DNA of 64,000 nucleotides from Patescibacteria group bacterium. Its GTDB lineage: Bacteria; Patescibacteriota; Patescibacteriia; Buchananbacterales; GWA2-38-13. Location: NCBI GenBank assembly GCA_028712155.1, contig JAQTQO010000002.1, forward strand, positions 11,851-75,850, read 5' to 3'. The notes below the pieces were generated by a model. The model did no database searches and was not told the origin of the DNA. It saw nothing but the letters and a program-made list of their open reading frames with translations. Below are positions 19,992-26,376 of this stretch, piece after piece (the first letter of the stretch is position 1; each line of letters opens with the position of its first letter). Both the position numbers and the translations under genes were made by a program.

Positions 19992-21785
19992 ATGTCCAAG
20001 CCCGCGAAACGCAGCAACAGCCGGTCGTTTCGAGGTCACGGCGGACCATTACGCGAGCTCATTACGCACGGCGAAGACCACCGCGCATGGAAAGAAAAGA
20101 TCGTCACGCTTCCACGGCTCAACCTCAACAACCGCCAGCTCTACGATTTGGAACTGCTGTTGAACGGCGGCTTTTCGCCCCTGCGCGGGTTTCTCGACGC
20201 GGAGAACTACGCCAGCGTTGTCCAGCACGGACGCCTCAGCGACGGGACGATCTGGCCGATTCCCATTGTCCTTGATGTTGCCGAAGGTCGGGCATTTTCT
20301 GCCGGGCAGGAAATCGCTCTATGTGACGCATTCGGCAAACCGCTCGCCGTGCTTTCCGTCACTTCGGTGTACCGTCCCGACATCTTGCGCGAGGCAACCG
20401 AGGTGTACGGTACGATCGATCCCGCGCATCCCGGGGTGAAATACCTGCTGCAGGAAACCGGCCGCGTGTACCTCGGCGGCGAGATCTACGGCCTTGCGCT
20501 GTCCGACCAATATGATTTTTCCGATCTGCGGCATACCCCGCGACAGCTGCGAGAATGGTTTGCAACGAACGGATGGGAACGCATCGTCGGATTTCAAACC
20601 CGGAATCCCCTGCACCGCGCGCACGTAGCAATGATCCAACGGGCCATGGCGCAACACGGCGCGCGGGCGCTCCTGCACCCCGTGGTCGGGCTGACGAAAG
20701 AAAACGACGTCGATTACGTGACGCGCGTACGGTGCTACCAAAAAATTCACCGCCACCACCTTGGTGCAGAGGCTTCGAAGCTCAGCTTACTGCCGCTCGC
20801 CATGCGGATGGCCGGCCCGCGTGAAGCGGTGCTGCATGCGATCATCCGAAAAAACTACGGCTGCACGCACTTCATCGTCGGCCGCGACCACGCCGGGCCG
20901 GGCGCGGACGCCACGGGCCGACCGTTCTACAACCCCTACGATGCGCAAACCGCCGCCGCCAAAGCAGCCGACGAAATCGGCATCGAAATTATCCCGATGT
21001 CCGAGTTTGTGTACGTTGCCGAGCGGCACCAGTACCTGCCGGTCAACGAAGTGCCGACCGGCCACACCGTAAAAAAAATCTCCGGTACTCAGCTGCGGCA
21101 AATGCTCGCCGATGACGCGGAAATCCCGGAATGGTTTTCGTTCCCCGAAGTCATCGAAGTGCTGCGCCGCAGCACCCAACGCCAGCGGAATTCCGGACTG
21201 ACGGTCTTTTTCACCGGTCTGCCGTCCGCCGGAAAATCGACGCTCGCGACCCGGCTGTACGCCAAGCTCCTGGAACTGCAGGACAAAGCCGTGACGCTTC
21301 TGGACGGCGACGTCATCCGCCAACACCTCTCCAAAGGTCTGGGTTTTTCCAAAGAAGACCGCGACATTAACATCGCGCGAATCGGATTTGTCGCAAGTGA
21401 GATCACCAAACACGGCGGCATCGCGATTTGCGCTGCTGTTTCTCCGTATGAAGAAGCGCGGCGGAAAAACCGCCAGCTGATCGGCCGTTACGGCCGTTAC
21501 GTCGAGGTTTACGTTTCCACCCCGCTGTCGGTATGCCGTCAGCGTGACCCGAAAGGCCTCTACTCCCGCGCCGCGCAAGGGCTGAGCCAGAACGTCACCG
21601 GCGTTACGGATCCCTACGAACCGCCGAAATCACCGGAAATCACCATCGACACGACCGATATCGATCCGGAGGCAGCCGTCGAACGCATCCTGCAATACCT
21701 CGGCATACCGCGACCGGAGCACAGCGCGAGCGACCAGCTCCGGGCAGAAACCCGCGGAGCGGCGCGGAACACGACGTCTCCATGA
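19992..21785 (+). CDS. sat/cysC: Bifunctional sulfate adenylyltransferase / adenylylsulfate kinase (PAPS synthesis)
   Basis: ATG at 19992 (MSKPAKRS...); the tool ORF begins upstream at 19713. ATP-sulfurylase motif QTRNPLHRAH. C-terminal APS-kinase P-loop GLPSAGKSTLATRLY plus ...DGDVIRQHLSKGLGFSKEDRDINIARIGFVA. Stop overlaps the wzm start. Confidence 0.85.
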   Translation: MSKPAKRSNSRSFRGHGGPLRELITHGEDHRAWKEKIVTLPRLNLNNRQLYDLELLLNGGFSPLRGFLDAENYASVVQHGRLSDGTIWPIPIVLDVAEGRAFSAGQEIALCDAFGKPLAVLSVTSVYRPDILREATEVYGTIDPAHPGVKYLLQETGRVYLGGEIYGLALSDQYDFSDLRHTPRQLREWFATNGWERIVGFQTRNPLHRAHVAMIQRAMAQHGARALLHPVVGLTKENDVDYVTRVRCYQKIHRHHLGAEASKLSLLPLAMRMAGPREAVLHAIIRKNYGCTHFIVGRDHAGPGADATGRPFYNPYDAQTAAAKAADEIGIEIIPMSEFVYVAERHQYLPVNEVPTGHTVKKISGTQLRQMLADDAEIPEWFSFPEVIEVLRRSTQRQRNSGLTVFFTGLPSAGKSTLATRLYAKLLELQDKAVTLLDGDVIRQHLSKGLGFSKEDRDINIARIGFVASEITKHGGIAICAAVSPYEEARRKNRQLIGRYGRYVEVYVSTPLSVCRQRDPKGLYSRAAQGLSQNVTGVTDPYEPPKSPEITIDTTDIDPEAAVERILQYLGIPRPEHSASDQLRAETRGAARNTTSP

Positions 21786-22564
21786 TCCAATTTTGTACAA
21801 ACTTGTACCGGCATCGCGAGCTCCTCCATGAACTCGTATGGAGCAATATCAAGGCACGGTATAAACAGTCGATCCTGGGCATCGGATGGGCCATCGTACA
21901 GCCGCTGGCGCTCATGCTGGTTTCCGTCTTCATTTTCTCGCAAGTGGCGAAGTTTCCCAGCGACCACTTCCCCTACCCGATCTTTGCGTACACCGCACTG
22001 ATCGCATGGACACTCCTTTCCACCTCCCTGTCGTCGGCGGTACCAAGCCTCGTCAATAATATTTCGCTGCTGCGAAAAGTATATTTCCCGCGCGAGATCT
22101 TCATCGTCACCAACATTCTCATCGCCCTGGTGGACTATGGCATTGCGGCGGTGCTGCTGGTGGGTATGCTGGTGTTCTACCGCATCCCGCTGCACGCGGC
22201 GATCCTCTATCTGCCCGTCATTCTCCTCATTCAACTGATCTTCATGACCGGGCTGTCGTTGGTGGGTGCCATCGTCAACGTCGCCTTCCGCGACATCGCC
22301 CGCGGATTGCCGATCCTGCTGCAAATCTGGATGCTCGCCTCGCCGGTGTTCTACCCGATCAGCATGATACCGCCGCAATGGCGGTTTTGGTACTCCCTCA
22401 ACCCGATGGTGGGCATCATCGAAGGGTACCGTTCCATCTGGCTCGATGGAACGGCCCCCGCCGTCGACCTGCTGGCTATTTCCCTGCTGGAAGCGGTACT
22501 GATGTTTGTCGTCGGATACGCACTGTTTTGCCGCGGCGAAGAGGTCGTTAACGATATCGTATGA
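21782..22564 (+). CDS. wzm: ABC-2 type polysaccharide export permease (Wzm/TagG-like)
   Basis: 260 aa with 6 TM segments. The N-terminal ...YRHRELLHELVWSNIKARYKQSILGIGWAIVQPL is the ABC-2 Wzm signature. Start and stop overlaps on both sides. Confidence 0.8.
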   Translation: MIQFCTNLYRHRELLHELVWSNIKARYKQSILGIGWAIVQPLALMLVSVFIFSQVAKFPSDHFPYPIFAYTALIAWTLLSTSLSSAVPSLVNNISLLRKVYFPREIFIVTNILIALVDYGIAAVLLVGMLVFYRIPLHAAILYLPVILLIQLIFMTGLSLVGAIVNVAFRDIARGLPILLQIWMLASPVFYPISMIPPQWRFWYSLNPMVGIIEGYRSIWLDGTAPAVDLLAISLLEAVLMFVVGYALFCRGEEVVNDIV

Positions 22565-25495: not shown

Positions 25496-26376
25496 ACGAT
25501 GCGTTACATACCACGGGCATGGATCGGGAACGGGTTTCCTTTTACCTTAGGACGAGACAAGGTTTGGGGTCGGCCCGATGGCTGATTACCCGTCTCTTGC
25601 ACAACTGGCTAAATATTTGGGTGATCAAGCTGTCGGGTCGGCGCGCCAGTCTAACTCCTTTCCGCTGGCAGTGGGAATGTTTTGGAAATGGCGACTTCCA
25701 CCAAATCGGGAACGAATTTCTCGGATATTTTACTCAGCTGGCAGGACTGAAACCCGACCATCGCGTGCTTGATATCGGATGCGGCATCGGACGCATGGCA
25801 GTCCCACTGACAAAATACCTGAATCAGCAGGGTGCATACGTTGGTTTTGACATTATCGACTACGGGATCAGGTGGTGCCAAAAAAATATTTCCAGCCGAT
25901 ACAATAATTTTCAATTCCTGCATGTTGACATTAAAAATAAACGCTATAACCCGCGGGGAAAATCCGGAGCCGAAACGTTCGTTTTTCCATTCAATGACCA
26001 TTCCTTTGATTTTGTTTTTCTCACCTCGGTATTTACCCACATGCTCCCTGAGGCGGTCGAAAATTACACCCGCCAAATCTCTCGGGTATTAAAACCCGGC
26101 GGCAAAGTACTCATCACTTTCCTTATCATAAATCAAGAATCCCTCCGGCTCATGCGGGAGGGAAAAAGCGTATTCAATCTCCATCATTTCCGTGGACCCT
26201 GCTGGGTAATCAACAAGACTTCACCCGAGGACGTCATCGGATATGAGGAACTATATATCAGAGAAACGCTTCGCCGGTACCGGCTCAGCTTAATCGAGCC
26301 GATCCACTACGGATTATGGTGCGGGAGAAAAGAATATTTAGGTTCGCATGATATTGTCATGGCAGAGAAAATATAA
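25492..26376 (+). CDS. Class I SAM-dependent methyltransferase
   Basis: 294 aa with motif I VLDIGCGIGRMAV and motif post-I/II VLKPGGKVLITF. Start overlaps the upstream stop. Confidence 0.7.
   Translation: MNDALHTTGMDRERVSFYLRTRQGLGSARWLITRLLHNWLNIWVIKLSGRRASLTPFRWQWECFGNGDFHQIGNEFLGYFTQLAGLKPDHRVLDIGCGIGRMAVPLTKYLNQQGAYVGFDIIDYGIRWCQKNISSRYNNFQFLHVDIKNKRYNPRGKSGAETFVFPFNDHSFDFVFLTSVFTHMLPEAVENYTRQISRVLKPGGKVLITFLIINQESLRLMREGKSVFNLHHFRGPCWVINKTSPEDVIGYEELYIRETLRRYRLSLIEPIHYGLWCGRKEYLGSHDIVMAEKI

What the first reader, a model, noticed from the sequence alone, without database searches (positions are those of the whole stretch)
19992..26376. Translationally coupled PAPS-synthase / Wzm / Wzt / sulfotransferase / methyltransferase operon: candidate sulfate-capped glycan export system
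A bifunctional Sat/CysC gene is coupled by overlapping stop/start codons to wzm, then to wzt. These feed into a fusion protein of a PAPS-type sulfotransferase, a short coiled-coil and an MTase-like domain, and then into another SAM-MTase.

In ABC-transporter-dependent O-antigen pathways (E. coli O9a WbdD/Wzt), the chain is capped by a terminator enzyme built on a coiled-coil ruler, and Wzt's C-terminal domain recognises the cap. Here the capping enzyme would be a sulfotransferase with its own PAPS supply. That predicts a sulfated and possibly methylated non-reducing terminus as the export signal. I know of no described sulfate-based chain-terminator/export-gating system in bacteria.
Basis: partly seen in the sequence, partly recalled or inferred. 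Interest (0 to 1): 0.8.

Follow-up and report, generated by a model that had tools for sequence, protein, structure and literature searches.

The report
Sulfating, methylating glycan export operon
A candidate-phyla (Patescibacteria) bacterium carries an operon that makes activated sulfate, exports a surface sugar polymer and probably sulfates and methylates it first; related loci in many phyla suggest that sulfation is an undescribed way of capping such polymers.

Summary
Five + strand genes (19992-26376) overlap start-to-stop: bifunctional Sat/CysC, Wzm, Wzt, a sulfotransferase–long helix–methyltransferase fusion, and a further methyltransferase.

One correction is important. Wzt has no Wzt_C carbohydrate-binding module. 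Its C-terminus is an intact class I methyltransferase domain, 55% identical to the one on the sulfotransferase fusion.

The operon opens a 23-kb glycan island lying between type IV pilus genes. The island ends in a Wzy_C ligase-like gene next to the major pilin gene.

A 70-75% identical relative keeps the order sat/cysC–wzm–wzt(MTase)–sulfotransferase.

Elsewhere, the same sulfotransferase family repeatedly lies directly after wzm–wzt, usually a Wzt that does carry the binding module. There it is often the N-terminal domain of a protein with a tandem-repeat coiled coil followed by glycosyltransferase modules. That is the architecture of known chain terminators (WbdD, WbbB). One example is a second Patescibacteria genome with cysC–cysQ–sat in the same operon.

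I found no paper describing sulfate-based termination.

The best reading is PAPS-fed sulfation and methylation before ABC export, probably as a terminal cap. In this locus export gating by a cap-reading module is not supported.

The parts
19883..19912 (+). Promoter-like site (TTGCCA-18-TATAAT) upstream of the operon, in the AT-rich gap between the divergent pilD and sat/cysC genes
   Evidence: 11 of 12 consensus matches. Sequence read. A consensus match only; function is not shown.
19992..21785 (+). Bifunctional sulfate adenylyltransferase / APS kinase (Sat/CysC, PAPS synthase), 597 aa. The Sat part is about 20034-21170 and the CysC part about 21195-21701.
   Evidence: NF004040 equivalog at 794.8 bits (cut-off 669), plus PF14306, PF01747 and PF01583.
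21782..22564 (+). Wzm, the ABC-2 permease of a polysaccharide exporter, 260 aa
   Evidence: PF01061 at 72.7 bits; weak matches to galactan Wzm and KpsM. ATGA overlap with sat/cysC.
22561..23295 (+). Wzt nucleotide-binding domain (aa 1-245 of the 462-aa Wzt)
   Evidence: ABC_tran; best solved relatives are A. aeolicus Wzt (E 8e-57), TarH/TagH and M. tuberculosis RfbE; 92 of the 120 listed relatives carry Wzt_C.
23302..23949 (+). Class I SAM methyltransferase domain fused to the Wzt C-terminus (aa 248-458), in the place where a Wzt_C carbohydrate-binding module normally sits
   Evidence: Methyltransf_12 and no PF14524 match; 55% identity to the fusion's MTase domain; all family-invariant residues are kept, including G-C-G of motif I and the motif II Asp; the fusion is also present in L001, P0366, P0124 and an independent assembly.
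23939..24568 (+). PAPS-type sulfotransferase domain of the 518-aa fusion (aa 1-210)
   Evidence: Sulfotransfer_3 and Sulfotransfer_1. AF2 model with pLDDT 91.7; the best 50 Foldseek PDB matches listed are almost all PAPS sulfotransferases; invariant R18 S19 G20 T21 S22, E52, K104, R129, S137.
24578..24766 (+). Long charged helix (aa 214-258), followed by the conserved amphipathic 'YRSRSWKLLGHVRRIK' helix (aa 256-276)
   Evidence: predicted helices 214-258 and 260-277; the same S-x-S-W-[RK] motif follows the coiled coil in sulfotransferase relatives that lie next to Wzm/Wzt. Coiled-coil oligomerisation and membrane binding are inferred, not shown.
24770..24829 (+). Pro/Ala-rich disordered linker (aa 278-297)
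   Evidence: pLDDT below 50 for residues 278-297.
24833..25495 (+). Class I SAM methyltransferase domain of the fusion (aa 299-511), a paralogue of the Wzt-borne domain
   Evidence: the family has 882 representatives at E<=1e-30.
25492..26376 (+). Separate class I SAM methyltransferase, 294 aa, of a different family from the two paralogous domains
   Evidence: Methyltransf_11 and _25; only 39 bits against the fusion's MTase domain.
26428..27756 (-). WsaF-like glycosyltransferase, convergent with the operon
   Evidence: WsaF_C E 9e-45 and WsaF_N E 7e-10.
27908..30100 (+). Two-module GT2 + GT4 glycosyltransferase, 730 aa, the candidate polymerase
   Evidence: Glycos_transf_2 at aa 10-126; Glyco_transf_4 and Glycos_transf_1 at aa 361-701.
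30135..31478 (+). Polyprenyl-phosphate hexose-1-phosphate transferase (WbaP/WcaJ type), the initiating enzyme
   Evidence: Bac_transf. TIGR03025 at 400 bits (cut-off 295.6).
41311..43194 (+). Wzy_C-family membrane protein (WaaL/PglL/TfpO-like ligase, or a Wzy polymerase) at the far end of the glycan island, about 95 bp from the major pilin gene
   Evidence: Wzy_C E 8e-15; weak matches to O-glycosylation ligase models. Its role as the acceptor-transfer enzyme for this glycan is inferred.
43289..43825 (-). Major pilin-like gene (MKARKGFTLIELLVV...), a possible acceptor of the glycan
   Evidence: prepilin cleavage motif and a product of about 178 aa. Glycosylation of it is inferred from position only.

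Best explanation
This is the export-and-finishing operon of an ABC-transporter-dependent surface-glycan pathway in a Patescibacteria MAG.

Proposed sequence of events:
1. A WbaP/WcaJ-type phosphoglycosyl transferase starts the glycan on polyprenyl phosphate.
2. The GT2-GT4 protein and the WsaF-like glycosyltransferase extend it on the cytoplasmic face.
3. Sat/CysC makes PAPS locally, and the sulfotransferase domain of the fusion sulfates the glycan.
4. The paralogous MTase domains (one on the fusion, one on Wzt) and the fifth-gene MTase O-methylate it.
5. Wzm/Wzt then flips the lipid-linked polymer outward.
6. A Wzy_C ligase probably transfers it to a surface acceptor; the adjacent pilin is the obvious candidate.

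The most likely role of the sulfotransferase-helix-MTase protein is that of a non-reducing-end capping (chain-terminating) enzyme. It would be analogous to WbdD, with sulfate replacing phosphate.

In this lineage the cap-reading Wzt_C module has been lost. An MTase that normally sits just downstream of wzt has been fused to the transporter instead. The final modification would therefore take place at the transporter itself.

What is shown: the gene identities, the folds and motifs, the paralogy, the conserved synteny and the recurrent architectures.

What is inferred: the substrate, terminal rather than internal sulfation, the activity of each MTase, and the acceptor.

The confidence given (0.5) is for the whole statement including the capping role. 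The narrower claim, PAPS-fed sulfation and methylation of an ABC-exported glycan, I would put at about 0.85.
For: (1) The domain identities and overlapping genes are established.

(2) The sulfotransferase fold and the PAPS-binding motifs are present.

(3) PAPS supply linked to this pathway:
- L001 (70-75% identity) keeps sat/cysC-wzm-wzt(MTase)-ST.
- The Moraniibacteriota locus L040 has wzm-wzt(Wzt_C)-cysC-cysQ-sat-[ST-coiled coil-GT4].
- L124 has cysC between wzm and wzt, and L095 has cysC next to an ST-GT2 protein.

(4) Evidence for a terminator role:
- Of the 80 best sulfotransferase-family loci in species-representative genomes, 18 have a Wzt-type NBD within 10 kb.
- In 9 of those the Wzt carries Wzt_C.
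- In 9 the sulfotransferase gene follows the transporter genes directly, or is separated only by PAPS genes or the MTase.
- The sulfotransferase is the N-terminal domain of ST-coiled coil-GT proteins in L021, L040, L050, L071, L110, L124 and L126.
- In those proteins the coiled coil is built of 14-residue tandem repeats and ends in the same S-x-S-W-[RK] helix as in the window.
- PMC11231755 states that terminators reside in proteins with a coiled-coil ruler, and that all terminated systems have a carbohydrate-binding module on Wzt.
- L040 has no other candidate terminator within 10 kb.

(5) The MTase and sulfotransferase families are partners:
- 13 of 41 metagenome loci found with the MTase domain have the sulfotransferase gene adjacent.
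- The block wzm-wzt(Wzt_C)-MT-ST recurs.
- Fusions of the two occur in both orders.

(6) Wzt-MTase is a real and recurrent fusion:
- It is found in three clusters at 50% identity.
- P0124 is an NBD+Wzt_C+MTase form that looks like an intermediate.
- All family-invariant MTase residues are kept in the Wzt-borne copies.
- A third Wzt-MTase lineage is also followed by a sulfotransferase-like ORF.

(7) The island sits inside a type IV pilus cluster, with the Wzy_C gene next to the pilin gene.
Against: - This Wzt has no Wzt_C module. In the established model, Wzt proteins without that module export uncapped chains, with extension and export obligatorily coupled (PMC11231755). A terminator is therefore not required here.
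- The helix in the fusion is only about 45 residues. It is highly charged and could be a single alpha-helix rather than a coiled-coil ruler.
- Cytoplasmic donors (PAPS, SAM) force any sulfation or methylation of such a glycan to precede export. Adjacency of these enzymes to wzm/wzt is therefore also expected for enzymes that decorate every repeat unit.
- Most loci with this sulfotransferase family (62 of 80) have no Wzt within 10 kb.
- Neither domain of the fusion has detectable homology to WbdD.
- No glycan structure, enzyme activity or expression data exist for this uncultured organism.
- The rest of the genome was not examined for cysH/cysI or a sulfate transporter.
Confidence: 0.5

Rival explanations
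1. Chain decoration rather than capping. The sulfotransferase and the three MTase domains modify internal residues of each repeat unit, producing a sulfated, O-methylated polymer. Chain length would be set by the balance between transporter and polymerase, as in systems whose Wzt lacks the binding module. The Wzt-MTase fusion would merely co-localise a decorating enzyme with the exporter.
For: - Wzt lacks Wzt_C.
- Wzt proteins without that module need no terminator (PMC11231755).
- Three MTase domains plus a sulfotransferase is a large set for a single terminal residue.
- Most loci with this sulfotransferase family have no Wzt nearby.
- Any PAPS- or SAM-dependent modification must happen before export.
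Against: - In relatives the sulfotransferase sits at the N-terminal tip of repeat-built coiled coils, ahead of the GT modules, and next to Wzt proteins that do carry the binding module. That is the terminator signature.
- Five of the six sulfotransferases carrying the coiled-coil/S-x-S-W-[RK] motif are in Wzm/Wzt loci.
- L040 has a Wzt with the binding module and no other candidate terminator.
Confidence: 0.33
2. Cap reader rather than writer. The MTase domain on Wzt replaces Wzt_C functionally. It would bind the sulfated and/or methylated terminus made by its paralogue on the fusion and so gate export, with little or no catalytic turnover.
For: - It occupies exactly the position of Wzt_C.
- It is 55% identical to the domain on the putative capping enzyme, so it should recognise the same or a similar sugar.
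- The closest NBD relatives mostly carry Wzt_C (92 of 120 listed).
Against: - Every family-invariant residue, including SAM-binding motifs I and II, is retained in the Wzt-borne copies. That argues for an active enzyme.
- P0124 carries both Wzt_C and the MTase, so in that protein the MTase is an addition and not a substitute.
- The common ancestral arrangement is a free-standing MTase gene just after wzt.
Confidence: 0.12
3. Non-glycan substrate. The sulfotransferase sulfates a protein (for example tyrosines of the neighbouring pilins) or a lipid, and its place in the operon reflects only shared regulation.
For: - The best structural match is human tyrosylprotein sulfotransferase-2 (3ap3, E 7.7e-7).
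- The island is embedded in a type IV pilus cluster.
Against: - Foldseek E-values are similar for very different sulfotransferases (CurM, Stf9, Stf1, the SULTs), so the top hit says nothing about specificity.
- The same family is covalently fused to GT2, GT4, WbsX and RgpF glycosyltransferase modules in many genomes.
- The start codon overlaps the end of wzt.
Confidence: 0.04
4. Assimilatory role. Sat/CysC serves ordinary sulfate assimilation and is in this operon only by chance.
For: Bifunctional Sat/CysC enzymes also occur in assimilatory pathways. The rest of the genome was not inspected.
Against: - No cysH, cysI, cysJ, cysK or sulfate-permease gene turned up among the main ORFs of the window that were profile-scanned.
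- The stop codon overlaps the wzm start.
- The linkage of PAPS genes to wzm/wzt and a sulfotransferase recurs in L001, L040, L124 and L095. L040 even includes a CysQ-like PAP phosphatase.
- From general knowledge, Patescibacteria have minimal biosynthetic metabolism.
Confidence: 0.03

Closest known systems
E. coli O9a / K. pneumoniae O3 system: Wzm-Wzt(CBM) with the WbdD terminator (MTase + kinase + coiled-coil ruler)
   Same: - An ABC-2 exporter is followed directly by a two-activity finishing enzyme that has a helical extension and an amphipathic helix.
- One activity adds an anionic group from a nucleotide donor (phosphate there, sulfate here) and the other is a SAM MTase.
- The polymerase is a separate multi-GT protein.
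   Different: - There is no sequence or close structural relationship to WbdD.
- A sulfotransferase replaces the kinase.
- The helix is about 45 residues rather than a long trimeric coiled coil.
- Wzt carries an MTase rather than the carbohydrate-binding module.
- The operon includes its own PAPS synthase.
K. pneumoniae O12 WbbB and O7 ORF6: terminator domain, coiled coil and GT modules in one protein (PMC11231755)
   Same: Relatives of the window's sulfotransferase (L021, L040, L050, L071, L110, L124, L126) have exactly this layout. The sulfotransferase takes the N-terminal terminator position, and the protein lies next to a Wzt that carries the binding module.
   Different: - The terminator chemistry would be sulfation, not beta-Kdo or methylphosphate.
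- In the window itself the sulfotransferase protein carries an MTase in place of the GT modules.
Geobacillus stearothermophilus NRS 2004/3a S-layer glycan (slg) cluster: Wzm, Wzt, WsaC-F, WsaP, WsaB; cap is 2-O-methyl-rhamnose (from my own knowledge, and reviewed in PMC2943079)
   Same: - A monoderm-type organism.
- ABC-dependent synthesis of a protein-linked glycan.
- A WsaF-family GT, a WbaP/WsaP-type initiating enzyme and a Wzy_C-family transferase in one island.
- Methylation as a finishing step.
   Different: - Sulfotransferase and PAPS synthase are present here.
- An MTase is fused to Wzt.
- The likely acceptor is a pilin rather than an S-layer protein.
- No rml genes are seen in the window.
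K. pneumoniae O1/O2a type Wzm-Wzt without a carbohydrate-binding module
   Same: Wzt lacks Wzt_C.
   Different: Those transporters have a bare NBD and no terminator. Here the NBD carries a catalytic-looking domain, and a sulfotransferase/MTase finishing enzyme is translationally coupled to it.
Known bacterial glycan sulfation: rhizobial NodH/NodPQ, LpsS and KpsS; mycobacterial Stf enzymes; cyanobacterial synechan xss cluster (from my own knowledge)
   Same: PAPS-dependent sulfation of a secreted or surface glycoconjugate, sometimes with dedicated PAPS-synthesis genes.
   Different: As far as I know and could find, none of these is described as a chain terminator, as part of a Wzm/Wzt export checkpoint, or as fused to coiled-coil and GT modules.

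Membership tests
ABC-transporter-dependent (Wzm/Wzt) polyprenol-linked glycan pathway | ABC-2 family permease (Wzm) | tested here: met
   PF01061 at 72.7 bits (cut-off 26.9).
ABC-transporter-dependent (Wzm/Wzt) polyprenol-linked glycan pathway | Wzt/TagH-type nucleotide-binding domain | tested here: met
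   Best solved relatives are A. aeolicus Wzt (E 8e-57), TarH/TagH and RfbE. The NCBIfam TagH and Wzt models match, but below their equivalog cut-offs.
ABC-transporter-dependent (Wzm/Wzt) polyprenol-linked glycan pathway | Initiating phosphoglycosyl transferase and cytoplasmic polymerising GTs in the same cluster | tested here: met
   TIGR03025 at 400 bits, above the 295.6 cut-off. A GT2+GT4 protein and a WsaF-like GT are present.
Terminator-gated export (O8/O9a/O12 type) | Wzt_C carbohydrate-binding module (PF14524) on the NBD | tested here: not met
   No PF14524 match and no match to my own Wzt_C HMM. Residues 248-458 are an MTase domain.
Terminator-gated export (O8/O9a/O12 type) | Terminator activity in a protein with a coiled-coil molecular ruler | tested here: inconclusive
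   AF2 predicts one 45-residue helix plus an amphipathic helix, but the oligomeric state is unknown. Relatives have clear tandem-repeat coiled coils.
Terminator-gated export (O8/O9a/O12 type) | A modification found only on the non-reducing terminal residue and required for export | not testable with these tools
   Needs the glycan structure and mutants.
WbdD family (O9a kinase/MTase terminator) | Homology to the WbdD MTase and kinase domains | tested here: not met
   No WbdD chain at E<=1 with the protein or with the MTase-family profile. WbdD is not among the 50 best Foldseek PDB matches. There is no kinase domain.
PAPS-dependent sulfotransferases | Sulfotransferase fold with a 5'-phosphosulfate-binding loop and a 3'-phosphate-binding motif | tested here: met
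   The best 50 Foldseek matches listed are almost all PAPS sulfotransferases, prob 1.00. R18-S19-G20-T21-S22 and R129/S137 are invariant across the family. PF13469 scores 46.6 bits (cut-off 27).
PAPS-dependent sulfotransferases | PAPS-dependent sulfuryl transfer to a defined acceptor | not testable with these tools
   Needs an enzyme assay.
Bifunctional Sat/CysC PAPS synthase | Passes the curated equivalog model; both domains complete | tested here: met
   NF004040 at 794.8 bits (cut-off 669), covering profile positions 10-564 of 572.
Class I SAM-dependent methyltransferases (both paralogous domains) | Rossmann-like fold with glycine-rich motif I and the acidic motif II residue | tested here: met
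   Methyltransf_12 above its cut-off in both proteins. G42-C43-G44 and D65 are invariant in 12 family members, including the Wzt-borne copies. The Foldseek top hits are SAM MTases.

The most novel reading that the evidence does not exclude
Sulfotransferases of this family (GMHRSGTS...WGWKDPR...RNPxDVAxS) would be a previously unrecognised, phylum-spanning class of glycan chain terminators for Wzm/Wzt pathways. They would work from the tip of repeat-built coiled-coil rulers, often together with a dedicated MTase family and a local PAPS supply.

In this Patescibacteria lineage the cap-reading module of the transporter would have been replaced by a copy of the cap-writing MTase. The final capping step and the commitment to export would then occur on the same polypeptide (a writer-gated exporter rather than a reader-gated one), delivering a sulfated, methylated glycan to the type IV pilin.
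Probability: 0.35. Interest if true: 0.85.

Novelty: new variant of a known kind. Interest (0 to 1): 0.72.

Why it matters
Chain termination coupled to ABC export is the textbook quality-control step for many O antigens and S-layer glycans. Only three cap chemistries are established: methyl, methylphosphate and beta-Kdo.

A sulfate cap would add a fourth chemistry. It would also explain orphan sulfotransferase genes in O-antigen clusters. One example is the conserved, unexplained sulfotransferase-domain ORF between wzt and wbbB in Aeromonas salmonicida (PMC4483657).

It further predicts that single terminal sulfates have been missed in published glycan structures.

The Wzt-MTase fusion shows that the C-terminal slot on the transporter can hold an enzyme rather than a lectin-like module. 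That bears on how these transporters select their substrates.

For Patescibacteria, which depend on pili and surface contacts with host cells, it points to a sulfated, methylated surface or pilin glycan made at the cost of a dedicated PAPS pathway.

The idea can be tested in cultured organisms that carry the fuller version of the module: Nitrosovibrio sp. Nv4 and Paenibacillus sedimenti WST5.

Tried and rejected
- **Genome scan with the mixed alignment A1.** It failed because no stretch was conserved enough. I redid it with a sulfotransferase-only alignment, A2.
- **Foldseek with the full-length fusion model.** The list was swamped by MTase hits and said nothing about the sulfotransferase domain. 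I solved this by modelling that domain alone.
- **Sequence search of the PDB with the fusion.** No sulfotransferase chain appeared at E<=1.
- **WbdD homology.** Rejected.
- **My first locus census** read only 34 of the 80 loci because of how the files were laid out. It was repeated correctly.
- **Literature searches** found nothing relevant to a sulfate terminator. 'WbdD' with 'sulfotransferase' returned 0 papers. 'Patescibacteria' with 'sulfotransferase' returned only unrelated microbiome papers. 'Sulfotransferase', 'coiled-coil' and 'ABC transporter-dependent' returned only E. coli capsule typing papers.
- **Intrinsic terminator scan.** It was no better than chance (20 sites against 19.4 expected), so the operon end at 26376 rests on the convergent gene only.
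- **tRNA scan.** No tRNA genes in the window.
- **Methyl sulfate diester cap.** I considered that the MTase and sulfotransferase together build such a cap, by analogy with methylphosphate. I set this aside as chemically implausible, because alkyl sulfate diesters are reactive alkylating agents. This is my own reasoning and is untested.
- **Assembly or frameshift artefact.** Rejected for the Wzt-MTase fusion. It is present in two independent assemblies, in a 75% identical orthologue and in two further lineages.

Full report
**1.

Between 19992 and 26376 there are five + strand genes. Their junctions overlap:
- ATGA at 21782, 22561 and 25492.
- 11 nt at 23939-23949.

A sigma-70-like site matching 11 of 12 positions lies at 19883-19912, in the AT-rich gap that separates the operon from the divergent prepilin peptidase gene.

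Profile searches identify the products:

| Coordinates | Product | Main evidence |
|---|---|---|
| 19992-21785 | Bifunctional Sat/CysC | NF004040, 794.8 bits (cut-off 669) |
| 21782-22564 | ABC-2 permease (Wzm) | PF01061 |
| 22561-23949 | Wzt, 462 aa | ABC_tran plus an MTase domain |
| 23939-25495 | Fusion protein, 518 aa | Sulfotransfer_3 at aa 11-201; class I MTase domain at aa 336-437 |
| 25492-26376 | Separate class I MTase, 294 aa | Methyltransf_11/25 |

The Wzt NBD is closest to Aquifex aeolicus Wzt among solved structures (E 8e-57), followed by TarH/TagH and mycobacterial RfbE.

The same proteins occur in an NCBI MAG labelled 'Patescibacteria group bacterium' (86-kb contig). They also occur in an independent Logan assembly of run SRR22315508, with identical gene calls. 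The fusions are therefore not assembly artefacts.

**2.

Wzt has no Wzt_C carbohydrate-binding module.
- Residues 248-458 are a class I SAM MTase domain.
- That domain is 55% identical (E 8e-81) to residues 300-511 of the sulfotransferase fusion.
- Twelve members of this MTase family share 28 invariant positions. These include G-C-G of motif I and the motif II aspartate, and the Wzt-borne copies keep all of them. The domain therefore looks catalytically competent and not like a degenerate binding module.
- By contrast, 92 of the 120 listed relatives of Wzt carry Wzt_C.

**3. The sulfotransferase is credible**

- An AlphaFold model of residues 1-280 has a mean pLDDT of 91.7.
- Its best Foldseek matches in the PDB are almost all PAPS-dependent sulfotransferases: TPST2, the CurM sulfotransferase domain, Stf9, Stf1 and the cytosolic SULTs, all at probability 1.00.
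- Across 22 family members the 5'-phosphosulfate loop R18-S19-G20-T21-S22 is invariant. So are a candidate catalytic E52, the W-x-W-K-D-P-R motif, and the 3'-phosphate motif R129...S137.

The full-length model has a mean pLDDT of 83.6. It shows:
- the sulfotransferase domain (aa 9-210);
- a single 45-residue charged helix (aa 214-258);
- a short amphipathic helix carrying the motif YRSRSWKLLGHVRRIK;
- a disordered Pro/Ala linker (aa 278-297);
- the MTase domain (aa 299-511).

Neither domain is related to WbdD at the sequence level, and WbdD is not among the 50 best Foldseek matches.

**4. Context**

The operon opens a glycan island of about 23 kb.

The first part depends on the ABC transporter:
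- a WsaF-like GT (26428-27756, minus strand);
- a GT2+GT4 protein (27908-30100);
- a WbaP/WcaJ-type phosphoglycosyl transferase (30135-31478; TIGR03025 at 400 bits).

A second set of genes has a Wzx flippase:
- the Wzx flippase itself;
- further MTases;
- a GT11;
- several GT2/GT4 genes;
- a paralogous phosphoglycosyl transferase, 52% identical to the first.

The island ends in a 627-aa Wzy_C-family protein (41311-43194).

The island is inserted in a type IV pilus cluster:
- On one side are minor pilins and PilD.
- On the other side is a major pilin gene (about 43289-43825, MKARKGFTLIEL...) roughly 95 bp from the Wzy_C gene, followed by pilC, pilT, pilB and pilM.

Wzy_C proteins include the WaaL ligases and the PglL/TfpO pilin O-oligosaccharyltransferases (my own knowledge). 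Transfer of the glycan to the pilin is a reasonable inference, but it is unproven.

No cysH/cysI/cysJ-type gene turned up among the main ORFs of the window that were profile-scanned.

**5. Conservation**

A Logan contig, L001, carries the same layout at these identities:
- sat/cysC, 70%;
- wzm, 73%;
- wzt with the MTase domain, 75%;
- a 312-aa sulfotransferase (48%) that has the charged helix and an S-T-S-W-K motif but no MTase domain;
- then an unrelated MTase and a WbsX GT.

The conserved core is therefore PAPS synthase + Wzm + Wzt-MTase + sulfotransferase-helix. The MTase domain on the window's sulfotransferase is a lineage-specific addition, presumably a duplicate of the Wzt-borne one.

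Wzt-MTase fusions are rare but recurrent. Among the top 150 representatives of the MTase family, three clusters at 50% identity are NBD-MTase fusions.
- One of them, P0366, is again followed by a sulfotransferase-like ORF of a different family, with an overlapping start.
- Another, P0124, is NBD + Wzt_C + MTase.

**6. The wider pattern, which bears on mechanism**

*Genome scan.* A scan of species-representative genomes with the sulfotransferase alignment found more than 585 loci in many phyla. Among the best 80:
- 18 have a Wzt-type NBD within 10 kb.
- In 9 of those, Wzt carries Wzt_C.
- In 9, the sulfotransferase follows the transporter genes directly, or is separated from them only by PAPS genes or the MTase.

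*Architecture.* The sulfotransferase is frequently the N-terminal domain of large proteins:

| Locus | Architecture | Size / note |
|---|---|---|
| L040 | ST-GT4 | 795 aa |
| L021 | ST-GT2-GT4 | 1050 aa (stop-to-stop ORF) |
| L050 | ST-GT4-GT4 | 1178 aa; Nitrosovibrio sp. Nv4, a cultured isolate |
| L071 | ST-WbsX-RgpF | 1338 aa (stop-to-stop ORF) |
| L124 / L126 | ST-WbsX-GT4-GT2 | 1526 / 1542 aa (stop-to-stop ORFs) |
| L110 | ST-RgpF-WbsX-GT2 | 1683 aa (stop-to-stop ORF) |

Between the sulfotransferase and the GT modules lies a coiled coil built from 14-residue tandem repeats. Examples are LNQAVAERDGQITS four times in L124 and QLSKQIAEQEKVNA three times in L040. It ends in the same S-x-S-W-[RK] helix as in the window. 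Of six sulfotransferases in the genome loci that carry this motif strictly, five are in Wzm/Wzt loci.

*Metagenome scan.* A scan with the Wzt-borne MTase domain returned 41 loci.
- 13 of them have the sulfotransferase gene adjacent. By my own reading of the table, that is 11 of about 16 loci with enough flanking sequence.
- The block wzm–wzt(Wzt_C)–MT–ST recurs in L104, L110, L112, L124 and L126.

*Fusions in both orders.* MTase-ST-coiled coil proteins also occur. P0011 lies immediately after wzm and a Wzt_C-bearing wzt. P0004 is an ST-helix-MTase protein that follows wzm–wzt.

*PAPS genes.* They are linked to this module in L001, L040 (cysC–cysQ–sat), L124 and L095.

*L040.* This locus comes from a Candidatus Moraniibacteriota MAG, a second Patescibacteria lineage. 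Its compact operon contains a Wzt with the binding module and has no MTase, kinase or Kdo transferase within 10 kb. The sulfotransferase is therefore the only candidate terminator there.

**7. Comparison with what is known**

A 2024 paper from the Whitfield laboratory (PMC11231755) summarises the field:
- Established caps are methyl, methylphosphate and beta-Kdo.
- The terminator always sits in a protein with a coiled-coil ruler.
- All terminated systems have a carbohydrate-binding module on Wzt.
- Transporters without that module (O1/O2a) couple extension to export and need no cap.

The sulfotransferase family found here satisfies the architectural signature of a terminator in many genomes.

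I found no paper that connects sulfotransferases with chain termination. The nearest hint is an unexplained, conserved sulfotransferase-domain ORF between wzt and wbbB in Aeromonas salmonicida, whose O antigen shows no sulfate (PMC4483657).

**8. Interpretation for this locus**

*Well supported.* This is an ABC-transporter-dependent, polyprenol-linked glycan pathway with a dedicated PAPS supply, in which sulfation and methylation happen on the cytoplasmic side before export.

*Moderately supported, by analogy and comparative genomics.* The sulfotransferase-helix-MTase protein is the capping (terminating) enzyme.

*Not supported.* Cap recognition by a Wzt C-terminal binding module, because that module is absent.

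*The Wzt-MTase fusion.* The simplest evolutionary account is a gene fusion of wzt with the MTase gene that normally follows it. P0124 looks like the intermediate form, and the binding module would have been lost afterwards. Functionally this places a finishing enzyme on the transporter. Whether it writes the last modification, reads the cap, or does both is open.

*Main rival.* The sulfotransferase and the MTases decorate internal residues, and chain length is set as in other systems that lack the binding module. Sequence alone cannot exclude this.

**9. Verdict**

- The finding is real and was mostly read correctly. It needs the correction about Wzt.
- It is a new variant of a known kind of system.
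- It points to a testable general hypothesis, that sulfotransferases are a fourth class of glycan chain terminators. That hypothesis reaches beyond this window and includes cultured organisms.

Noticed in passing
window 15593-19889 and 43289-52998: The 23-kb glycan island splits a type IV pilus cluster. Minor pilins and PilD are on one side. A major pilin gene (about 43289-43825, minus strand), pilC, pilT, pilB and pilM are on the other. The pilin gene is convergent with a Wzy_C (ligase / O-oligosaccharyltransferase-like) gene and about 95 bp from it. An unrelated contig (P0011, JGI 3300056388) also has a wzm-wzt-MT/ST cluster next to pilD and minor pilins.
   Followed up: partly
window 31490-41225: A second, Wzx-type glycan gene set: Wzx on the minus strand, DUF268-like and FkbM-type MTases, a GT11 (fucosyltransferase family), three GT2 genes, a GT4, and a second phosphoglycosyl transferase that is 52% identical to the first (30135-31478).
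   Followed up: partly
window 1-2355: A 37% GC stretch (the rest of the window is about 58%) encodes a 721-aa protein with a DndB-like domain and a C-terminal Swt1-like HEPN domain. It is possibly a defence or mobile element at the edge of the window.
   Followed up: no
window 55036-63891 (minus strand): A giant 2951-aa ORF downstream of the pilus genes. It was not characterised.
   Followed up: no
L002 7433-9457 (Logan SRR22388160): A three-domain Wzt: NBD + Wzt_C + an MTase of the same family (P0124). Its neighbours are a B12/radical-SAM enzyme, GT4 genes and an STT3/PglB-type oligosaccharyltransferase, which suggests an ABC-exported glycan used for N-glycosylation.
   Followed up: partly
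L003 5191-6918 (JGI 3300014158): A glycosyltransferase (Glyco_tranf_2_5) fused to a Wzt_C-type module lies directly after an MTase-sulfotransferase fusion (P0005). The cap-binding module is thus on an enzyme rather than on the transporter.
   Followed up: no
L093 1124-2827: A Wzt NBD fused to a C-terminal beta-propeller (Lactonase/YNCE-like) in place of Wzt_C. It is followed by the same MTase family, with cysC nearby. This is another alternative occupant of the Wzt C-terminal slot.
   Followed up: no
L124 8480-13057; L040 9917-12304; L050 9998-13534: The coiled coils between the sulfotransferase and GT modules are made of exact or near-exact 14-residue (two-heptad) tandem repeats. Ruler length could therefore change by gain or loss of repeats.
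   Followed up: partly
PMC4483657 (Aeromonas salmonicida wb cluster, ORF19): A conserved 216-aa sulfotransferase-domain ORF sits between wzt (438 aa) and wbbB. The authors could not assign it a role and saw no sulfate in the O antigen. A single terminal sulfate could have been missed. I did not test whether it belongs to the same sulfotransferase family.
   Followed up: no
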